The notes beneath the pieces are model-generated. The model searched no databases, was not told where the DNA came from, and saw only the letters and a list, made by a program, of their open reading frames with translations. Shown here piece by piece: positions 14,752 through 25,629 of a stretch of 64,000 bases of DNA (within the stretch, counting starts at the first letter, position 1; the number at the start of each line of letters is the position of its first letter). The stretch is from a virus. The stretch lies in IMG/VR virus record IMGVR_UViG_3300046740_000431, positions 28,027 to 92,026 of that record. One strand, given 5' to 3'. Made by a program: the position numbers and the translations under genes.

Positions 14752-15266
14752 CCTCCGACCTCGACCGCCGACGACGACTGCTCTGCACTGCGGGGTGCAG
14801 GATCGGCGTTGGTCACCGGGATCTCGATGGGCAGAACCTCCTCCCTCCGTCGACGACGACCGATCGGTCCCGTCTGGAACCCAACCAGGATGCTGTGCTG
14901 TTCTCGCACCCAAGAAACGCTGAGATCCTGGATTGTGCCAGAAAGTACTAGGTCCCCAATCCGCTGGAGTACGTTGGCGACTGCCCTCCTGCGCTGCACC
15001 TCCGGCTCGGCGAACGACACCGCGCCGTGCTTGAGTGCGCGGCGGATCTCGCGGAGCGACCGGTCGGCGACCACATCGGCGTCGAGGTCGTGCTCGGCAA
15101 CGCTCTGCTGGCGGAGCACGCGCTTGGCGGCGTCGTGCCAGGCCAGGTCGTCCATGGTGATGCCGACGGCGTGTTGGCCGGCGAGGTTGGTGATCCTGAC
15201 CTCCTCGATCGGGATCTCGAGGGTGATCAGGATGTCCTGGTCGTTGATGACGTGGGAGGTCTTCAC
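14748..15266 (-). CDS. hypothetical protein
   Basis: 172 aa, coupled at both ends. Confidence 0.55.
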   Translation of the reverse strand: MKTSHVINDQDILITLEIPIEEVRITNLAGQHAVGITMDDLAWHDAAKRVLRQQSVAEHDLDADVVADRSLREIRRALKHGAVSFAEPEVQRRRAVANVLQRIGDLVLSGTIQDLSVSWVREQHSILVGFQTGPIGRRRRREEVLPIEIPVTNADPAPRSAEQSSSAVEVGG

Positions 15267-15499
15267 GTGATCTCCGGCGTCTGGTGGAGCGCCCTGGTCG
15301 CAGCGAGCTCGGCGTCGATTGCGTCGGACTCGGCCCGCGAGGCGCGGTCGTGTTCGAGCTTAGCGGCCTCGAGCCGGCGATCGGCGTCGTGTCGCGCGGA
15401 GCCGGCCTCGTAGCGGGCGCGGACCGCAGCCTCGAACGCCTTGAGCGTACCCACCGTGACGGTGACGGTGCGATGGTCGTCTGCGTTGAACTTCTTCAC
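15263..15499 (-). CDS. hypothetical coiled-coil protein
   Basis: Coupled GTG start. Confidence 0.45.
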   Translation of the reverse strand: MKKFNADDHRTVTVTVGTLKAFEAAVRARYEAGSARHDADRRLEAAKLEHDRASRAESDAIDAELAATRALHQTPEIT

Positions 15500-15945
15500 G
15501 AGGGGATCGGCTCCCCGAGCCCGAAGCTCGACAGGATGCGGGCGAAGGCCTCTTCGTCCGTGGAGTACTCGGCGCCCAGCGCGCAGAACACGCTCTGCCT
15601 GGTGTCCCCGCTGAACACCAGCTGGCGGGCCCCACCGTAGGCGAAGCCGATCTCCGCCCAGGCGCCGCGGGTGGCGAGGTCGGGGTAGGCCTTGGGCGGG
15701 ACCAGGAACCACACGGTCAGCGCGGTCGCCGCCTCGGAAAGGCACTCGAGCGCGACGCGGCGGCGCTGCACTGGCGGCCAGCTGTCGGGGTTCGCCGCGC
15801 CGGCCTGCTCGATGCTGTCGATCCACGATGCCATGGCGTCAACGCCGGCCTGGCGGAGCCGGTCACGCCAGCGCTTGGCCCGCTCGATCTCCGCCGACGA
15901 CGCGGCGACGTACACCTTCGGTCCTGAAACTTTCTCTCGTGCCAT
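15496..15945 (-). CDS. nucleoside 2-deoxyribosyltransferase / nucleotide hydrolase-like protein
   Basis: KVYVAAS...SWID...TRGAWAEIGFA pattern; GGAGG RBS before ATG 15945. Confidence 0.7.
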   Translation of the reverse strand: MAREKVSGPKVYVAASSAEIERAKRWRDRLRQAGVDAMASWIDSIEQAGAANPDSWPPVQRRRVALECLSEAATALTVWFLVPPKAYPDLATRGAWAEIGFAYGGARQLVFSGDTRQSVFCALGAEYSTDEEAFARILSSFGLGEPIPS

Positions 15946-16019
15946 CTGGTCCTCCGCTCGGCCATGCGAGCTGCGAAAACCACGGTTGCATATCCGGGTG
16001 TGGCACGTCAATCACCGGG

Positions 16020-16772
16020 TCAGTGCTGTGGGTAGGTTACGCAGTGCACGCGGCCGTCCCAGCATGCCCGGCACTCGCCGCACTTGTTGTCCCTGGTCTC
16101 CACGGCGCGGCACTCGATGGACCCACGACCCTCGACCACGCGCACGCCGCTCGAGCTGTACGGGACGCTGGAGACCGCGCTGACGGGGATCCCGGCGAGC
16201 TCGGCGGGCAGCACGGGCTCCGAGTCGATCATGTGCGCGGAGAGCCGCACCGTGAGGTTGCCCGGGATCTCGCGACCGGCCAGGTACTCCCTGACCACCT
16301 CGTACTCCCTGGTGGGCAGCCAGTGCCTGACGCCCGGCGTTCTTCGGCAGACCTCGACGATGTTCTCGAGGTGCCAGAGGCCCTGTAGATCCCCGCTGTC
16401 ATGCCACCGGAACCAGTCGTGCGGCGGCCTGCAGGCGCTCGAGATCAGCTTGACCATCGCCTCGACCCAGAGCGGGTGGTGGATGCCGTTCCACCTGCGC
16501 CGGTGGCCCTCGAGCAGCGGGCGCCAGGTCCGGTACCAGTCGGTCATGGCGTAGCAGCCGGAGCACACCGAGCCAGGGACGCCGCGGAGCTTGCCGCCGG
16601 TCTGGCAGCGCTGGGCCGAGATCCCGTAGCTGTAGCCCGGCATCTTCGACGGGTGTCCGAGCGATCCAGCGATGGCCGTGGCCACCTTCCTGGTCATCGG
16701 CCCGCTGTAGTCGTGGGGGATCGCCGTCGCCTCCGTGAACTCGCGGACGACGGGCAGCGAGCCGCGGCGCAC
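16020..16772 (-). CDS. phage GP88-family protein (radical-SAM-like)
   Basis: KMPG.S, C-x13-CSGCYA, FRWHDSGD, HWLPTRE, NLTVRLS, CGECRACWD. Confidence 0.85.
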   Translation of the reverse strand: MRRGSLPVVREFTEATAIPHDYSGPMTRKVATAIAGSLGHPSKMPGYSYGISAQRCQTGGKLRGVPGSVCSGCYAMTDWYRTWRPLLEGHRRRWNGIHHPLWVEAMVKLISSACRPPHDWFRWHDSGDLQGLWHLENIVEVCRRTPGVRHWLPTREYEVVREYLAGREIPGNLTVRLSAHMIDSEPVLPAELAGIPVSAVSSVPYSSSGVRVVEGRGSIECRAVETRDNKCGECRACWDGRVHCVTYPQH

Positions 16773-17069
16773 CTACCCTCCGCCGGAATCGCCGAGGTCG
16801 ACGTAGCCGATGGACCGGAGCTCGCGCCTGGCCTGCTGCCGGTTGACCCGTCGGAACCTGCGGGTCATCGCGCGCGCCGCCGACTCTCCGCGGTGCCACG
16901 GCCGCCAGTGGTCCGCGGCGTGGGTGTGTCCGTTGATGATCCCCGGGTCGTCGCCGAATACGGCGCCCGGGATCTCAACCCACCTGAACCACAGAGAGTC
17001 GGAGCCGTCCATCCTGACGATGCCGTCGAGGCGCGGCGTCACGGCGTCGATCCTATCGATGTTGGTCAT
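16773..17069 (-). CDS. hypothetical protein
   Basis: Coupled ATG. Confidence 0.4.
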   Translation of the reverse strand: MTNIDRIDAVTPRLDGIVRMDGSDSLWFRWVEIPGAVFGDDPGIINGHTHAADHWRPWHRGESAARAMTRRFRRVNRQQARRELRSIGYVDLGDSGGG

Positions 17070-17284
17070 CGGGTGTGGTCCGCCGGGTAGATGCGGTTGA
17101 CGCGCTTCCCGCCGGCGGCTTCGTGGACGCTGGCGTCGAGCTCGTGGTCGAGCAGCCGACCGACCGAGTACTCCGCCGACTTGCTCTGCGATGCGTGCTC
17201 CTGGCACTGCTCGACCATGACCCACCCATCGAGCTCGGGATCGTACGCCTCCGAGCAGCCGCAGCCGCGGACGACAGCGCTCAC
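17066..17284 (-). CDS. hypothetical protein
   Basis: CGC...CxxH; coupled at both ends. Confidence 0.45.
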   Translation of the reverse strand: MSAVVRGCGCSEAYDPELDGWVMVEQCQEHASQSKSAEYSVGRLLDHELDASVHEAAGGKRVNRIYPADHTR

Positions 17285-17730
17285 GGGCGGGCCGCCAGGA
17301 ACTCAGCCACGGCCGCGTTGGCGCCGCTGATGACCGCCTCCGCGGACTCGGCCATGCCGTGCTGCTCCACCACCGCGGCGAGAGCCTGGCGGCTCCACCC
17401 GACGATCACGCCGTAGAGCCAGGAGTCCGTGGGGTTCTTGGACCAGTCGCGCTGGTCGGTCGACATCGCGGTGATCAGCGAGGCGATGGCGATGTGGAGA
17501 ACTGGGAGAGATCCCCTGATGTCGTCCTGTGCGTCAGCCCGCTGCCGGTCGTACTCCGGCATCTGAGCCTTGGCTTGCTCGTCATGTGCGGAGCGAAGCT
17601 CGAGAAGCTCAGAGACGGCATTCTGGAGATCTGCTCGCATCTTCCTGACGCGATCGAGAAGATCTCCAGGACCACCGTGTTCGTCGACTCCCAGGGCACT
17701 CGCCAGAGCTTCGGTTGCTGAGCTTTCCAT
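17281..17730 (-). CDS. hypothetical protein
   Basis: GGAGG RBS at 17739-17735, ATG 17730; coiled coil plus RDWS....DSWLYGVIVGW motif. Confidence 0.6.
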   Translation of the reverse strand: MESSATEALASALGVDEHGGPGDLLDRVRKMRADLQNAVSELLELRSAHDEQAKAQMPEYDRQRADAQDDIRGSLPVLHIAIASLITAMSTDQRDWSKNPTDSWLYGVIVGWSRQALAAVVEQHGMAESAEAVISGANAAVAEFLAARP

Positions 17731-17740
17731 GTTCCCTCCG

Positions 17741-17834
17741 TGCACCAGGCGGGGCTCGAACCCGCGACCTTCGCAGCCGGACCGGAGGTATGACGCTCCG
17801 ACCGCGGACGCTCTACCGTCTGAGCTACCGGTGC
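17741..17834 (-). ncRNA. tRNA-like RNA with enlarged (38-nt) anticodon arm
   Basis: Acceptor GCACCGG/CTGGTGC plus A, D arm GCTC-AGACGGTA-GAGC, variable AGGTC and T arm GCGGG-TTCGAGC-CCCGC are canonical; the anticodon arm is TCCGCGGTCGGAGCGTCATACCTCCGGTCCGGCTGCGA. Confidence 0.8.
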
Positions 17835-17919
17835 ATACGACGCAGGAGAATTCCTGCGCCGGGCGCCCGCGGCCGCCACGCCGAGTCGCGCCAGGGGTGG
17901 CGCGGCGGGAACATCGAGA

Positions 17920-18033
17920 TCACCGGACCGCCAAGCTCCACAGCACGACTGCCAGTGGCATCACGAGCAACCACAACAGGAGGAGGATACCTGCGCTTCC
18001 GCAGGCGTCAGGCTTGTTTCGTCCGATCGGCAT
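17920..18033 (-). CDS. 37-aa single-pass membrane peptide (absent from ORF track)
   Basis: MPIGRNKPDACGSAGILLLLWLLVMPLAVVLWSLAVR*; ATG 6 nt after the -10 box. Confidence 0.55.
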   Translation of the reverse strand: MPIGRNKPDACGSAGILLLLWLLVMPLAVVLWSLAVR

Positions 18034-18039
18034 CAGGCG

Positions 18040-18069
18040 ATAATGCGGGCGTAGAGCGTGAAATGTCAA
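18040..18069 (-). promoter_or_regulatory. sigma70-type promoter
   Basis: TTGACA(18069-18064)-18 bp-CATTAT(18045-18040). Confidence 0.6.
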
Positions 18070-18338
18070 GCATCGCCTAACGCCTCGGCCAGCCGCTCGC
18101 GCTCGAAATTCGGCCTCGCTTCTCGGTCAACCTGGCGGATCCCGGCGAGCAGGTTGTAGCTGGGACGGGTCTTCGCCTCCCCGGTGCTGGCGTCCATCAT
18201 GGTCACCGCGACCACGCGGAGACGAGATCTCATGTCGCGAGCTGCCGAGATCGCCTCATCGACCAGGAGGTCGACGGACTGGTATCGCTGGCCGGTGTCG
18301 AGCACCACCTCGACGATGAACGGGCCGCAGGACTTCAC
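18066..18338 (-). CDS. hypothetical protein
   Basis: 90-aa ORF with protein-like composition. Confidence 0.45.
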   Translation of the reverse strand: MKSCGPFIVEVVLDTGQRYQSVDLLVDEAISAARDMRSRLRVVAVTMMDASTGEAKTRPSYNLLAGIRQVDREARPNFERERLAEALGDA

Positions 18339-18371
18339 CAGATCGACTATGCGGCGCCCGCCCGCAAACGG

Positions 18372-19556
18372 TCAAGCCAGGAGCTGCTCGACCTGGGCGC
18401 CCGACAGCGTGGCGTTGCTGACCAGCGTGAGCACCGGGGACCCCGCATCGGTAACGGTTTCGAGCATCACCCACCACCCGGCTGGCACGAATCCGCCGAT
18501 CGCGTTGCCGTTCCCGGTCTTGTTGGCGATGGCGACGCCGAGCCCGAGGTTGTACTCGACCTCGCAGCAGCTCGGCTGAACCGTCGTAGATCCCGCGGTC
18601 GGTCCCATGCGGAACTGCACGCGACCCTTGTGGTTGCCGGCCAATGACGCCGTCACGGATGCCGACGCGCGGTAGGAGACGATCGACGGGGCTGTCGGCG
18701 ATACCTGGAAAGCGGTGTTGAGCACGCGCGCGGCGACTCCGCCGGTGATCCCGGGGAGCTGGGCAGTGACGGAGCCGAACCCGGCGCCAGCTGGTCCAGT
18801 TGCGCCGGTAGCCCCGGTGTTGCCCTGTGGTCCGGTTGCCCCGGTGGCCCCCTGCGCTCCGGTCATCCCCTGAGTGCCGGTGGCACCCTGCGGACCAGTC
18901 GCACCCTGTGGGCCAGTCGATCCGGCTGGGCCAGTCAACCCCTGCGGACCTTGGGCTCCGGTCGCGCCGGCAGTTCCAGTGAGGCCCTGCGGGCCTTGCA
19001 CGCCGGTGGAACCTGGAATCCCTGCTGCCCCGGTCAACCCCGTCGCGCCGGTGTCGCCCTTCGCGCCAGCCGGTCCTGCGGTGCCCTGGATCCCCTGCAT
19101 CCCGGTCTGCCCCGTTGCCCCGGTCGCGCCCTGGGCGCCGGCCGGGCCGGTGGCGCCGGCTGGTCCCTGCGGCCCGGTCGCTCCGGCGTCACCCTTCGGG
19201 CCCTGCGGGCCGACGGCACCGACAGCTCCGGCCGGGCCGGTGGTGCCGGCTGCACCCTGGGATCCGGTGGCGCCCTGCGGACCGGTGGCGCCGACCTGGC
19301 CAGGAGATCCCGTTGCTCCGGTTGGCCCCTGAGGTCCAGCCGCTCCCTGGGCTCCTGTCGGTCCAGCTGGTCCGGCTGGCCCCTCGATGGTCATCCACGC
19401 GGTGTCGCTGTTGTCGGCGGTCTTTACTTCGAGGTGCGGGACGTTCGACCCGTCCACCCAGACGCACAGCCTACCGGTTGGGCCCGTGAACCCGTTGCCG
19501 GGCTGCTGGGGGTTGTTGGGGGTGATCCAGATCGTTGGCATCGGGACGTCGGACAT
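18372..19556 (-). CDS. collagen-like fibre protein
   Basis: About 66 uninterrupted Gly-X-Y triplets (approx. 18789-19382) between globular N- and C-terminal domains. Confidence 0.88.
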
Positions 19557-19602
19557 CGTGCGGTGATACGCCACGGACCGACACCACACCACGTCTAAGT
19601 TG

Positions 19603-19926
19603 CTACGGCTCCCACGTCGCGCCAGGCACGACGTCGAAGGCCTTGGCGTAGGCCTTGCCGTCGCTCGGCGTCGCGCCGGCGCCAGCCGAGATCGCAGCGG
19701 CGCGCTGAGCGGCCGACAGGGCGATGTACGTGACGGTGGATCCGGTCGACGGGGTCCTGACGTCCGCGATCTGCGCGCCGATGGTCGCGAGGTTCGCCGT
19801 CAGGAAGTCCTGCAGAGCAGGAAGCGACGTGTCGCTCACCATGTGACACCAGTCGTCACCGACGACGCCTGGAGGGTGGAAGTCGGTCGCGGAATGCGTG
19901 GATACGGGGCCGATGTAGATGGTCAC
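19603..19926 (-). CDS. DUF4031-like protein
   Basis: M.IYI...[12 protein letters not shown]...QRAAAI.AGA. Confidence 0.6.
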
Positions 19927-20714
19927 ACCGGGATCGGTATCACGTTGCCGGCGTCGTCGACCTGAAACCCGTCCGCGATCTCTGCCGTGGCCCTCGCAAC
20001 GATGACGGCGCGCGCGAGAGCTGCTTCCTGGTCGTGCCGCTCGAGCTCGCCGAGCAGGTCTACGAGCTTCATGATCTTCTCGAGGGTAGCCCTCTGCCTC
20101 CGCGGAGTCGCCGCGCAGGCGGCGAACAGGCGCAGGATCTCTTGGTTGATCCCGAGGACAGCCTGCTCGACTTCGTCAACCCGTGAACTCGCCTGCGCCT
20201 GTGCACGCTCGGCCTGGCACTTCATGCAACCGGGGTCGCAGTCTCCGCGCTGGCCCGTCCCACCTGGCCCGTGCTTCATGCGTAGATCTCGGCCGGTTTC
20301 GCCAGGGAAGAAACCGGCCGCGCGCAGCTTGTTCAACTTCTCGAACATCCTTGGCGGCTCCGTGCTCCGCTCGATCTCCTCTCGGACGATCTGTCGGATG
20401 TTGACCGCCGACTCGACGCCTTGTGCTCGAAGATCTCGCAGTTCGCGAAGCGCGGCCGCCGTCATCCACCCTGCATCTCCGGTCGCGTAGTGCTTCAGCA
20501 TCTTGTCGATGGCGGAGTCGGACAGCTTGGCCGGCTTCTGCGCCAGCTCGTCAAGCCTCCGCTTCGCCCTGGCCGCGAGATCTCCAACTGCCGCAAGGCA
20601 ACTCAGGCAGTCCACCAGGTCAACGCACGTGGTTGCGTTCTCCGTTGGCGACCCGCTCCCGCAGTAGCGCTCGAGTCCGCCGAACCCGTCTCCGAGTAGA
20701 TGTGTAGTTGCCAT
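19923..20714 (-). CDS. hypothetical protein
   Basis: AAGGAAG RBS before MATTH; Cys motifs and coiled coils. Confidence 0.55.
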   Translation of the reverse strand: MATTHLLGDGFGGLERYCGSGSPTENATTCVDLVDCLSCLAAVGDLAARAKRRLDELAQKPAKLSDSAIDKMLKHYATGDAGWMTAAALRELRDLRAQGVESAVNIRQIVREEIERSTEPPRMFEKLNKLRAAGFFPGETGRDLRMKHGPGGTGQRGDCDPGCMKCQAERAQAQASSRVDEVEQAVLGINQEILRLFAACAATPRRQRATLEKIMKLVDLLGELERHDQEAALARAVIVARATAEIADGFQVDDAGNVIPIPV

Positions 20715-20734
20715 TGTCTTCCTTGTTGTTGATG

Positions 20735-21166
20735 TCATGCGCTTTTTCGGTGCGTGTCGTGGCATCCAGAACAGCGGCATCCGTGGGTAGCCGCTCCGTG
20801 CGCCGCGCCGTTGATGCAGAGCTTGAGCAGGCGCAGCTTGTCTCGCCGGTGCTGCGCGAGCAGCCGCTGGGTCTGGTCTGACTTGTACCGGCGTGCCATC
20901 GGGCTCGATGCGTCCTCGATCGCGGTCGACCCGGACTGGCCCACCGCCCACGGCGTAGGGCTGCCCTCTCGCCTGACCAGGTACCCGGCCTTCGCCATCC
21001 TGCCGAGCTGGCCGTTCATCCACCTGACCAGCGCGTCGGGTTGCAGCCTCGACCTTGGCATCACCGCGGCAACGATCTGATCGGCGGTAGAGATCCCGGC
21101 CAGGCTCACCGCCCTCAGGATCGCGGTCCACGTGGTCCCGATCCGGGCAGATCTCCGTTGCCTCAT
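20735..21166 (-). CDS. hypothetical protein, possible wHTH plus Zn finger
   Basis: LGRMAKAGYLVR wing-like segment; C..H..C..C C-terminus; AAAGGA RBS. Confidence 0.5.
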   Translation of the reverse strand: MRQRRSARIGTTWTAILRAVSLAGISTADQIVAAVMPRSRLQPDALVRWMNGQLGRMAKAGYLVRREGSPTPWAVGQSGSTAIEDASSPMARRYKSDQTQRLLAQHRRDKLRLLKLCINGAAHGAATHGCRCSGCHDTHRKSA

Positions 21167-25063: not shown

Positions 25064-25629
25064 GGTGACCTCACAGGGATCCATCCGCGCCGACCGCCGA
25101 TCGACACCACCGCACCCTTGGTCTCCAGCCGGCGGAGAATGTCGGCCACCGTGACAGCCGGGATCCCGAGCCCGTCGGTCAGCTCGCGGTGCAGCGGCGG
25201 CATGCCGTAGAGCTCCACGTACCGGTACAGCCACGCGAAGACACGCCACTCGTTGGGCGCCAGGTAGATCGGATCCGGCGTCTCCGCGATCGGCGCCGGT
25301 GTCGCTGCGGGCGCCGAGATCGACCGCACCGGGAACTCGTCGGAGAACTCACCGGCGAGCGCGCGCTGGGCCAGGCTCTCGATGTCCCAGCTGACCGAAG
25401 CGTGTCCGGGAACCCGGCGCAGCGCGTCCACCAGGTCGAGCTTCGGCCGCGGAGAGCCGGCCCGGATGTCGTGGTAGTCGCCGCAGAGCACGGAGAGGGC
25501 GATCCTTGCCATCGCCAGGCGGGTCGGCTTCGCTGCGTCGCCTGCTGAGCTGGAGCGCTCGACCAGGGCGCTGACCTCGGCGTAGAGCCGGGCGGTCGCG
25601 GACCCGAGCTTCGCTTCCACCGCGGGCAT
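25060..25629 (-). CDS. protein with C-terminal LexA-type DNA-binding domain
   Basis: EWRVFAWLYRYVELYGMPPLHREL...LRRLETKG; no peptidase domain. Confidence 0.7.
   Translation of the reverse strand: MPAVEAKLGSATARLYAEVSALVERSSSAGDAAKPTRLAMARIALSVLCGDYHDIRAGSPRPKLDLVDALRRVPGHASVSWDIESLAQRALAGEFSDEFPVRSISAPAATPAPIAETPDPIYLAPNEWRVFAWLYRYVELYGMPPLHRELTDGLGIPAVTVADILRRLETKGAVVSIGGRRGWIPVRSP

What the first reader, a model, noticed from the sequence alone, without database searches (positions are those of the whole stretch)
17728..17834. tRNA-shaped RNA with a 21-nt-enlarged anticodon arm, fused directly to the next gene's RBS
Seen: acceptor stem, D arm, variable loop and T arm are fully canonical (U8, A14, GG in the D loop, TTCGA), but the anticodon arm is 38 nt instead of 17. 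It can pair as a long stem (CGCGGTCGGA/TCCGGCTGCG) or as an alternative inner hairpin GGAG-C-GT-CAT-AC-CTCC centred on CAT. There is no CCA, and the discriminator is followed at once by CGGAGGGAAC-ATG. Intact pairing in every arm argues against random decay. Inference, four options: (a) a non-decoding tRNA mimic acting as a decoy for anticodon nucleases or uncharged-tRNA sensors; (b) an RNase P/Z processing signal that releases an mRNA starting at its Shine-Dalgarno; (c) a two-state switch; (d) an intron-like insert in a Met tRNA. This is the best candidate here for an undescribed element.
Basis: partly seen in the sequence, partly recalled or inferred. Interest (0 to 1): 0.82.

Follow-up and report, generated by a model that had tools for sequence, protein, structure and literature searches.

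The report
Phage tRNA look-alike with overlong anticodon arm
A soil phage of high-GC bacteria carries a gene with the complete frame of a lysine-type tRNA but a long hairpin in place of the anticodon arm, so it almost certainly cannot read codons; no relative was found, so it may be a working tRNA-shaped RNA or a recently broken tRNA gene.

Summary
On the minus strand at 17741-17834 lies a 94-nt tRNA-shaped gene. Acceptor stem, D arm, variable loop and T arm are canonical, and Rfam scores it as tRNA at 47.5 bits (cut-off 29). Its anticodon arm is 38 nt instead of 17.

The arm folds into one dominant hairpin of 10+2 base pairs (z -3.4). No single excision restores a canonical anticodon arm, there is no bulge-helix-bulge motif, and the 92-kb record encodes no splicing or RNA-ligation enzyme. 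An intron is therefore unlikely.

The frame is closest to bacterial tRNA-Lys(UUU), and the T arm is identical to actinobacterial tRNAs. The same sequence occurs in contigs from other soil samples, so it is not an assembly artefact.

It is a singleton. No homologue turned up in IMG/VR, cultured phages, related phages or the neighbourhoods of shared genes, so covariation cannot be tested.

Best reading (0.45): a non-decoding tRNA-shaped RNA, co-transcribed with the next gene and cut out by RNase P and a 3' endonuclease, like a natural "tRNA scaffold". Main rival (0.35): a recently disabled tRNA gene.

This scan has noted similar phage tRNA frames with inserts on other DNA.

The parts
17741..17834 (-). 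tRNA-shaped gene, 94 nt: 5' end G17834, discriminator A17741
   Evidence: Rfam RF00005 at 47.5 bits, model positions 1-71; ARAGORN; cloverleaf minimum-free-energy fold
17810..17834 (-). 5' acceptor strand, U8-A9 and D arm (GCTC-AGACGGTA-GAGC) with A14, G18 and G19
   Evidence: Read from the sequence; aligned to the Rfam consensus at posterior probability near 1
17771..17808 (-). Enlarged anticodon arm, 38 nt. T-A and C-G pairs at the base with one bulged C, a 10-bp stem (17797-17806 with 17772-17781, two G-U pairs), a 1x1 internal loop, 2 more pairs and a 9-nt apical loop
   Evidence: Fold of the arm alone: -21.3 kcal/mol, z -3.43, 90% of the ensemble; pair probabilities near 1.0 in the whole RNA
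17782..17796 (-). Apical region of the arm. It holds CAU and CCUCCG, the exact complement of CGGAGG at the downstream ribosome-binding site. It overlaps a TCCGG-TCCGG tandem repeat
   Evidence: Read from the sequence; the motif's frequency in this genome gives about 0.004 expected in the loop
17742..17770 (-). Variable loop AGGTC, T arm and 3' acceptor strand
   Evidence: A 28-nt stretch covering the last 4 nt of the anticodon arm, the variable loop, the T arm and 2 nt of the 3' acceptor strand is identical to a tRNA of an actinobacterial genome
17734..17739 (-). Shine-Dalgarno GGAGGG of the next gene, starting 2 nt after the discriminator
   Evidence: Read from the sequence
17281..17730 (-). 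ORF of 149 aa directly downstream, an orphan of unknown function
   Evidence: GC by codon position 0.71/0.47/0.77. No Pfam or PHROG family. Only itself found among 5.8 billion proteins. No informative Atlas or PDB match
17841..17858 (-). 7-bp hairpin CGCAGGA-ATTC-TCCTGCG, 6 nt upstream of the tRNA 5' end
   Evidence: Read from the sequence; forms in the 371-nt fold
18040..18069 (-). Promoter-like site TTGACA-18-CATTAT (10 of 12), about 200 nt upstream on the same strand
   Evidence: Consensus scan: 2 sites found against 0.2 expected from shuffles. Not evidence of function

Best explanation
This is a tRNA-derived gene that no longer decodes. It keeps the whole frame of a class I, lysine-type tRNA: acceptor stem, D arm, variable loop and T arm, with every tertiary-contact base. 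Where the 17-nt anticodon stem-loop should be, it carries a stable 38-nt hairpin.

Proposed mechanism:
1. It is transcribed from the promoter-like site at 18069-18040 as part of a polycistronic RNA.
2. Host RNase P cuts between 17835 and 17834.
3. A 3' tRNA endonuclease of the RNase Z or RNase E type cuts after A17741. Both cuts are expected because the enzymes read the acceptor/T-arm stack and the elbow.
4. This releases a stable RNA of about 94 nt, to which CCA could be added.
5. It leaves an ORF149 mRNA that starts 1 nt before its Shine-Dalgarno.

The tRNA frame thus works as a processing and stability module that carries a hairpin, a natural counterpart of the laboratory 'tRNA scaffold'.

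Shown: the anatomy, the fold energetics, the lysine-type frame, the lack of a usable anticodon loop and the gene context. Inferred: transcription, both cuts, stability, and that selection rather than recency keeps the frame intact.
For: - The frame is fully canonical and scores as tRNA despite the insert.
- The arm is one well-defined helix, far better than shuffles. Two of its pairs are G-U, which pair only in RNA of this strand.
- Known decoding tRNAs have anticodon stems of 5 bp, at most 6 (PMC7609411), so a 12-bp arm with a 9-nt loop cannot place an anticodon on the ribosome.
- No excision rebuilds a canonical arm.
- A promoter-like site lies upstream, all neighbouring genes are on the same strand, and the ribosome-binding site abuts the 3' end.
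- Engineered tRNAs whose anticodon stem-loop is replaced by a hairpin insert are processed and stable in E. coli (PMC3753655).
- In my scans, insert-bearing frames appeared among phage tRNA genes (4 of about 119 loci) but in 0 of 120 cellular genes with the same arms.
- Lak phages have tRNAs with 'enigmatic introns' (PMC6784885).
Against: - No homologue exists in any collection searched, so there is no conservation or covariation.
- The gene lies in a mosaic region that the closest related phage lacks, next to an orphan ORF.
- The arm contains a TCCGG-TCCGG tandem repeat that suggests slippage mutation.
- An intact frame is equally expected shortly after a disabling insertion.
- The comparison of 4 of 119 phage loci with 0 of 120 cellular genes is small and used different patterns.
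Confidence: 0.45

Rival explanations
1. It is a recently disabled tRNA-Lys gene, a pseudogene. Local duplication or template switching expanded the anticodon stem-loop. The rest looks perfect only because too little time has passed for decay. Any processing is a leftover, not a selected function.
For: - It is a singleton in every collection searched.
- It lies in a fast-changing mosaic region: the nearest phage is syntenic except here, and the GP88-like neighbour has 70-72% identical homologues with unrelated flanks.
- The TCCGG tandem repeat and the quasi-palindromic arm fit slippage or template-switch mutation.
- A bulged C at the base of the arm suggests a 1-nt loss opposite it.
Against: - Extending a helix by about 7 pairs needs complementary gains on both strands, which simple tandem duplication does not give.
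- The two G-U pairs are not what templated copying produces.
- None of the 16 frame pairs or the conserved tertiary bases is damaged.
- Phage genomes lose useless DNA quickly.
Confidence: 0.35
2. It is a decoy or sponge for a host nuclease that attacks tRNA-Lys. The enzyme would bind the lysine-type frame but find no cleavable anticodon loop.
For: - The frame is closest to tRNA-Lys(UUU). The 25-nt 5' pattern hits almost only tRNA-Lys genes in metagenomes, and the nearest normal tRNA shares 52 of 56 frame positions.
- tRNA-Lys is the target of PrrC (PMC10264068) and of PARIS, which a phage T5 tRNA-Lys neutralises (PMC11464382).
Against: - Known counter-measures are cleavage-resistant but still decoding tRNAs, or repair enzymes. 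No non-decoding decoy is described in the papers read.
- These nucleases recognise the anticodon loop, which is absent here.
- The host and its defences are unknown.
- The tRNA sets compared were biased by my own search patterns.
Confidence: 0.08
3. It is a cis-acting translational control element. The apical CCUCCG pairs with the CGGAGG of the ORF149 ribosome-binding site, and the arm's own CGGAG competes for it. The tRNA-like fold or its processing would then set ORF149 translation.
For: - There is an exact 6-nt complement between the loop and the ribosome-binding site, with about 0.004 expected from this genome's motif frequency.
- The loop-site duplex is -12.6 kcal/mol when computed in trans.
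- C-rich loops that pair with G-rich ribosome-binding sites are the mode of action of the 6C sRNA of high-GC Gram-positive bacteria (PMC6486639).
Against: - The motif was noticed after the fact.
- The alternative fold is 6.5 kcal/mol worse.
- Minimum-free-energy folds with the downstream sequence leave the loop unpaired.
- In an L-shaped fold the tip of the arm and the 3' end lie at opposite ends, and the site starts only 2 nt after the discriminator.
Confidence: 0.07
4. It is a working tRNA after removal of an insert, or one that decodes in an unusual way with its enlarged loop.
For: - Removing 20 nt at the canonical 37/38 site leaves a loop with U33, CGG and A37 on a stem with one bulged base.
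- Removing 21 nt from the 3' stem strand leaves a perfect 5-bp stem with a 7-nt loop.
- Phage tRNAs with unexplained inserts exist (PMC6784885).
Against: - The first product has G1-C72 and A37, whereas bacterial tRNA-Pro has C1-G72 and G37 (textbook knowledge).
- The second product has G at position 33.
- The 3' splice point is fully base-paired and there is no bulge-helix-bulge motif.
- 21 nt is far too short for a self-splicing intron.
- No splicing endonuclease, RtcB or RNA ligase is present in the record, which is 69% complete.
Confidence: 0.05

Closest known systems
Bacterial tRNA-Lys(UUU) (Rfam RF00005)
   Same: Acceptor stem, D arm, variable loop, T arm and discriminator A. 52 of 56 frame positions are identical to a metagenomic tRNA-Lys(UUU).
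   Different: There is no 5-bp stem and 7-nt loop, and no UUU anticodon. The arm is 38 nt. It therefore fails a defining feature of a decoding tRNA.
Engineered 'tRNA scaffold' chimeras (PMC3753655)
   Same: A tRNA acceptor stem, T arm and D arm are kept, and the anticodon stem-loop is replaced by a hairpin insert. Such RNAs are processed and stable in bacteria.
   Different: Those are laboratory constructs. Here the arrangement is natural, and its processing and stability are untested.
Insert-bearing tRNA genes of Lak megaphages, 'enigmatic introns' (PMC6784885)
   Same: Phage tRNA genes that are longer than expected because of an insert in the anticodon region, with no known removal mechanism.
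   Different: Those inserts are conserved across phage genomes and leave a recognisable anticodon. This one is a singleton in a 92-kb high-GC phage and leaves no canonical loop. No sequence homology.
Bacterial Y RNA YrlA, a tRNA-like module bound by Rsr/Ro
   Same: A non-decoding RNA that mimics the tRNA elbow. Two such modules next to TROVE genes surfaced in my 5'-half scan.
   Different: YrlA is permuted: its acceptor end is closed by a loop and the RNA ends leave through the anticodon-stem side. It also has an Rsr partner. Here the topology is normal, there is no Rfam hit and no TROVE gene.
6C sRNA of high-GC Gram-positive bacteria (PMC6486639)
   Same: A C-rich apical loop able to pair with G-rich ribosome-binding sites.
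   Different: There is no sequence or Rfam similarity, only one loop, and it is embedded in a tRNA frame. The resemblance is a lead only.

Membership tests
Decoding tRNA (RF00005) | Cloverleaf frame: 7-bp acceptor stem, D arm with A14 and G18G19, T arm with T54-T55-C56, U8 | tested here: met
   all pairs are intact, and Rfam gives 47.5 bits against a cut-off of 29.
Decoding tRNA (RF00005) | Anticodon stem of 5 (at most 6) bp with a 7-nt loop, U33 and a purine at 37 | tested here: not met
   The arm is 38 nt with 10+2 pairs and a 9-nt loop. The range in known tRNAs is 5-6 bp (PMC7609411).
Decoding tRNA (RF00005) | Aminoacylation and a CCA end | not testable with these tools
   No CCA is encoded. 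No CCA-adding enzyme is present in the phage record; the host enzyme could add it.
tRNA with a protein-spliced (archaeal or eukaryal type) intron | Bulge-helix-bulge motif, or both splice sites in single-stranded bulges | tested here: not met
   The 3' cut site of the only 37/38 reading lies inside the 10-bp helix.
tRNA with a protein-spliced (archaeal or eukaryal type) intron | Excision restores a canonical arm that fits the identity of the frame | tested here: not met
   In one search no deletion gives 5 pairs together with U33 and a purine at 37. The CGG reading conflicts with G1-C72 and A37.
tRNA with a protein-spliced (archaeal or eukaryal type) intron | Splicing endonuclease and ligase available | tested here: not met
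   PF01974, PF01139 and PF09414 are absent from the 92-kb record. The record is 69% complete and the host is unknown.
Group I intron in a tRNA gene | A self-splicing core of 200 nt or more | tested here: not met
   The insert is 21 nt, and there is no Rfam intron match.
YrlA / Y RNA | Permuted tRNA-like module, an Rsr (TROVE) partner and a match to the Rfam model | tested here: not met
   The topology is normal, there is no Rfam hit at E up to 1 and no TROVE gene.
Phage tRNA frames carrying inserts (Lak 'introns'; tRNA-Leu frame families noted earlier in this scan) | An intact tRNA frame with a folded insert at the anticodon arm | tested here: met
Phage tRNA frames carrying inserts (Lak 'introns'; tRNA-Leu frame families noted earlier in this scan) | Homology to other members (shared frame lineage, recurrence in many phages) | tested here: not met
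   No homologue was found. The other long-arm cases found (L024, L035/L046, L021/L023, L326) come from unrelated contigs.

The most novel reading that the evidence does not exclude
The tRNA frame is a natural scaffold that delivers a small regulatory hairpin. After tRNA-type processing, a stable RNA displays the loop CCUCCG, an anti-Shine-Dalgarno sequence. That loop would pair with GGAGG ribosome-binding sites, either the one 1 nt beyond its own 3' end before cleavage or host and phage sites in trans. This would be a tRNA-scaffolded translational repressor that works like the C-rich-loop sRNAs of high-GC bacteria.
Probability: 0.1. Interest if true: 0.7.

Novelty: new member of a known kind. 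Interest (0 to 1): 0.35.

Why it matters
If phages keep tRNA frames as carriers for other RNA hairpins, gene finders that label such genes 'pseudo' or 'undetermined' are hiding a class of phage small RNAs. The laboratory tRNA-scaffold trick would then have a natural precedent. A lysine-type frame without an anticodon is also the simplest imaginable bait for nucleases that target tRNA-Lys. This single copy cannot settle either point, because there is no relative to compare and no RNA data. Its value is as one more high-GC, class I example of a pattern seen elsewhere in this scan, and as a compact construct that is easy to test at the bench.

Tried and rejected
- **Cultured phages:** megablast of 15000-21000 and blastn of 17650-17900 against 50,697 records gave no match.
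- **Exact 16-nt loop motif in IMG/VR:** two chance hits inside unrelated coding DNA.
- **Neighbouring proteins as handles:** ORF149 and the 402-aa neighbour found no related loci. The protein search for ORF149 returned only itself.
- **Related phages by terminase (42-66% identity):** only two normal tRNAs, Met and Val-UAC, in the closest relative and none elsewhere. The region around the feature has no counterpart there.
- **GP88-like neighbour:** ten related loci, with no tRNA nearby in nine and no shared flanks in the three closest (70-72% identical), the only ones compared.
- **First genome contigs pattern:** found nothing. The looser one hit only normal-length tRNAs, mostly Lys-UUU.
- **Final IMG/VR scan with this T arm and a long gap:** only low-GC giant-virus-type tRNAs with ordinary introns.
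- **Sequencing runs:** no RNA holder listed. The contigs laid showed no variant inside the element.
- **Repeats:** no other copy of the arm or of any 12-mer from it in the genome. No reverse transcriptase or diversity-generating repeat near the tail-fibre gene.
- **tRNA-His origin:** considered because 28 of 29 nt match actinobacterial tRNA-His across the 3' stem strand and T arm. Rejected because the acceptor stem and discriminator are not His-like.
- **ARAGORN's Pro-CGG and Gly-ACC calls:** rejected as forced fits.

Full report
**Source.** The window is bases 28027-92026 of a 92,026-bp virus record with 65-73% GC. Its genes include a large terminase, a collagen-like tail fibre, DnaB-type and other helicases, a RecE-like exonuclease and methyltransferases. 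The nearest cultured relatives by terminase are Streptomyces phages at only about 25% identity. It is therefore an uncultured phage, probably of a high-GC Gram-positive host.

**The object.**
- Rfam's tRNA model matches 17741-17834 from end to end at 47.5 bits against a cut-off of 29. The only anomaly is 34 nt where the model has 13.
- ARAGORN gives two incompatible answers depending on settings: Pro-CGG with a long variable arm, or Gly-ACC with a 13-nt intron. That is typical of a forced fit.
- The minimum-free-energy fold is a cloverleaf whose anticodon arm is a 10-bp stem, a 1x1 internal loop, two more pairs and a 9-nt loop.
- The arm alone folds at -21.3 kcal/mol with z -3.43. One of 200 shuffles does as well, and the fold takes 90% of the ensemble.
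The gene is on the minus strand, like all its neighbours.

**Not an artefact.** Contigs from public soil runs carry the same sequence. One from a second study spans 17404-17798 with no difference, one from a third spans 17813-18022, and a 13.4-kb contig spans everything. That last contig may come from the source sample, and bases 17799-17812 rest on it alone. No variant lies inside the element, so these data say nothing about covariation.

**Can it decode?**
- Known functional tRNAs have anticodon stems of 5 or at most 6 bp (PMC7609411).
- I enumerated every contiguous deletion that would bring the arm back to 17 nt. None gives five pairs together with U33 and a purine at position 37.
- The best two are these. 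A 21-nt deletion inside the 3' stem strand leaves a perfect stem but G at position 33. A 20-nt deletion at the canonical 37/38 site leaves U33-CGG-A37 on a stem with a bulged base.
- The second is ARAGORN's Pro call. Bacterial tRNA-Pro has C1-G72 and G37 (textbook knowledge), whereas this frame has G1-C72 and A37.
- The 3' cut site of that reading lies inside the 10-bp helix, so there is no bulge-helix-bulge motif.
- The record has no tRNA-splicing endonuclease, RtcB, RNA ligase or CCA-adding enzyme, though CheckV rates it only 69% complete.
- An insert of 21 nt is far below any self-splicing intron, and Rfam finds nothing else here at E up to 1.

**Origin of the frame.**
- A 25-nt pattern for the 5' acceptor strand and D arm found 66 metagenomic loci. 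About 60 are tRNA-Lys genes, UUU or CUU. The others are one normal tRNA with a 9-nt anticodon loop, two modules next to TROVE genes and two with long inserts.
- The T-arm pattern found 120 cellular tRNAs, all of normal length and mostly Lys-UUU.
- Among 1,471 tRNAs in all loci fetched, the nearest normal one is a tRNA-Lys(UUU) identical at 52 of 56 frame positions. Of the 60 best, 45 are Lys. This set is biased by my own patterns, so the lysine assignment is moderate, not firm.
- The T arm and variable loop are identical to tRNAs of actinobacterial genomes, which fits the presumed host.
- The phage's other tRNA genes are an initiator-like Met and Arg-UCU. A Lys-UUU for the rare AAA codon would have fitted that set.

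**Context.**
- A TTGACA-18-CATTAT site lies at 18069-18040 on the same strand.
- About 200 nt of leader follow, with hairpins; one lies 6 nt before the tRNA 5' end.
- Next comes the tRNA-like gene. One base after its discriminator begins CGGAGGG-AAC-ATG of a 149-aa ORF. That ORF has coding-type GC by codon position but no relatives or family.
- The phage's tRNA-Arg also sits inside an operon about 40 nt before an ORF, so tight packing of tRNA genes and ORFs is normal in this phage.

**Relatives.** None was found.
- The closest phage (terminase 66% identical) is syntenic over most of the genome, but not over the 18 kb that hold this gene. It has only normal Met and Val tRNAs.
- The GP88-like gene 1 kb downstream has 70-72% identical homologues in three other viral contigs, with unrelated flanks and no tRNA.
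- Pattern scans of IMG/VR with this D arm or T arm and a long gap found no homologue.
- They did find unrelated insert-bearing frames: L024, L035/L046, L021/L023, L326 and L279. That is 4 of about 119 phage loci with one D-arm pattern, against 0 of 120 cellular genes.
- Earlier notes of this scan describe phage tRNA-Leu and tRNA-Val frames with variable inserts. One of them led me to the Lak megaphage 'enigmatic introns', which I read (PMC6784885).

**A detail in the loop.** The apical region holds CCUCCG, the exact complement of CGGAGG at the ribosome-binding site. This genome's own motif frequency gives about 0.004 expected in the loop. It coincides with a TCCGG-TCCGG tandem repeat, and the arm's 5' strand contains CGGAG. 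I noticed this after the fact. Folds with the downstream sequence do not form the pairing, and the geometry of an L-shaped tRNA argues against it in cis. I keep it as the novel case at 0.1.

**Verdict.**
- The switch and the intron readings are disfavoured.
- The processing-signal reading fits the context but is inferred.
- The decoy reading gains only the lysine-type frame. tRNA-Lys is the target of PrrC and PARIS (PMC10264068, PMC11464382).
- I commit to a non-decoding tRNA-shaped RNA that is excised like a tRNA and acts as a processing and stability module carrying a hairpin (0.45).
- A recently disabled tRNA gene is a close second (0.35).

With no homologue and no RNA data, this is one more member of the loosely known kind 'phage tRNA frames with inserts', not a new class.

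Noticed in passing
L015-L045 (25 loci, e.g. L017:11503-11568): A family of gut-phage tRNA-like genes with a canonical acceptor stem, D arm and T arm but 36 nt between the D stem and the T-arm region. Two sequence variants differ by a compensatory T-A to G-C change in a 6-bp stem (AAATGG/CCATT against GAAGGG/CCCTT). The family looks conserved and structured.
   Followed up: partly
L035:1057-1114, L046:4479-4536, L024:7241-7311, L326, L021/L023: Other phage contigs, some with 68-70% GC, carry class I tRNA frames with enlarged anticodon arms. L035/L046, for example, has a 9-bp arm with a 6-nt loop. The contigs are unrelated to this phage.
   Followed up: partly
L171:3155-3300 and L198:4850-5100: In GC-rich metagenome contigs, permuted tRNA-like modules (T arm, closed acceptor stem, D arm) lie directly upstream of a gene whose product reads like a TROVE/Ro60 protein. 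These are probably YrlA-type Y RNAs.
   Followed up: no
window 18040-18069 (-) and 17841-17858 (-): A near-consensus promoter-like site, TTGACA-18-CATTAT, and a 7-bp hairpin lie in the 230-nt gap upstream of the tRNA-like gene.
   Followed up: partly
L167:19467-19534 (+), same genome, upstream of the window: A weak match to Hammerhead_II: 29.2 bits, below the gathering score of 37, E 0.035.
   Followed up: no
L167:16261-16336 (-), same genome: The phage tRNA-Arg(UCU) has two non-standard pairs (G-A and A-G) at the ends of its anticodon stem and encodes CCA, unlike the other two tRNA-type genes.
   Followed up: no
same genome, bases 25300-25393 (-): ARAGORN calls a 94-nt tRNA-Gly(GCC) with a long variable arm. 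Rfam finds no tRNA there at E up to 1, so it is probably a false positive.
   Followed up: yes
window 16020-16772 (-): The GP88-like gene has 70-72% identical homologues in three other 75-86-kb viral contigs whose flanks share nothing with this phage. This shows how mosaic the region is.
   Followed up: yes
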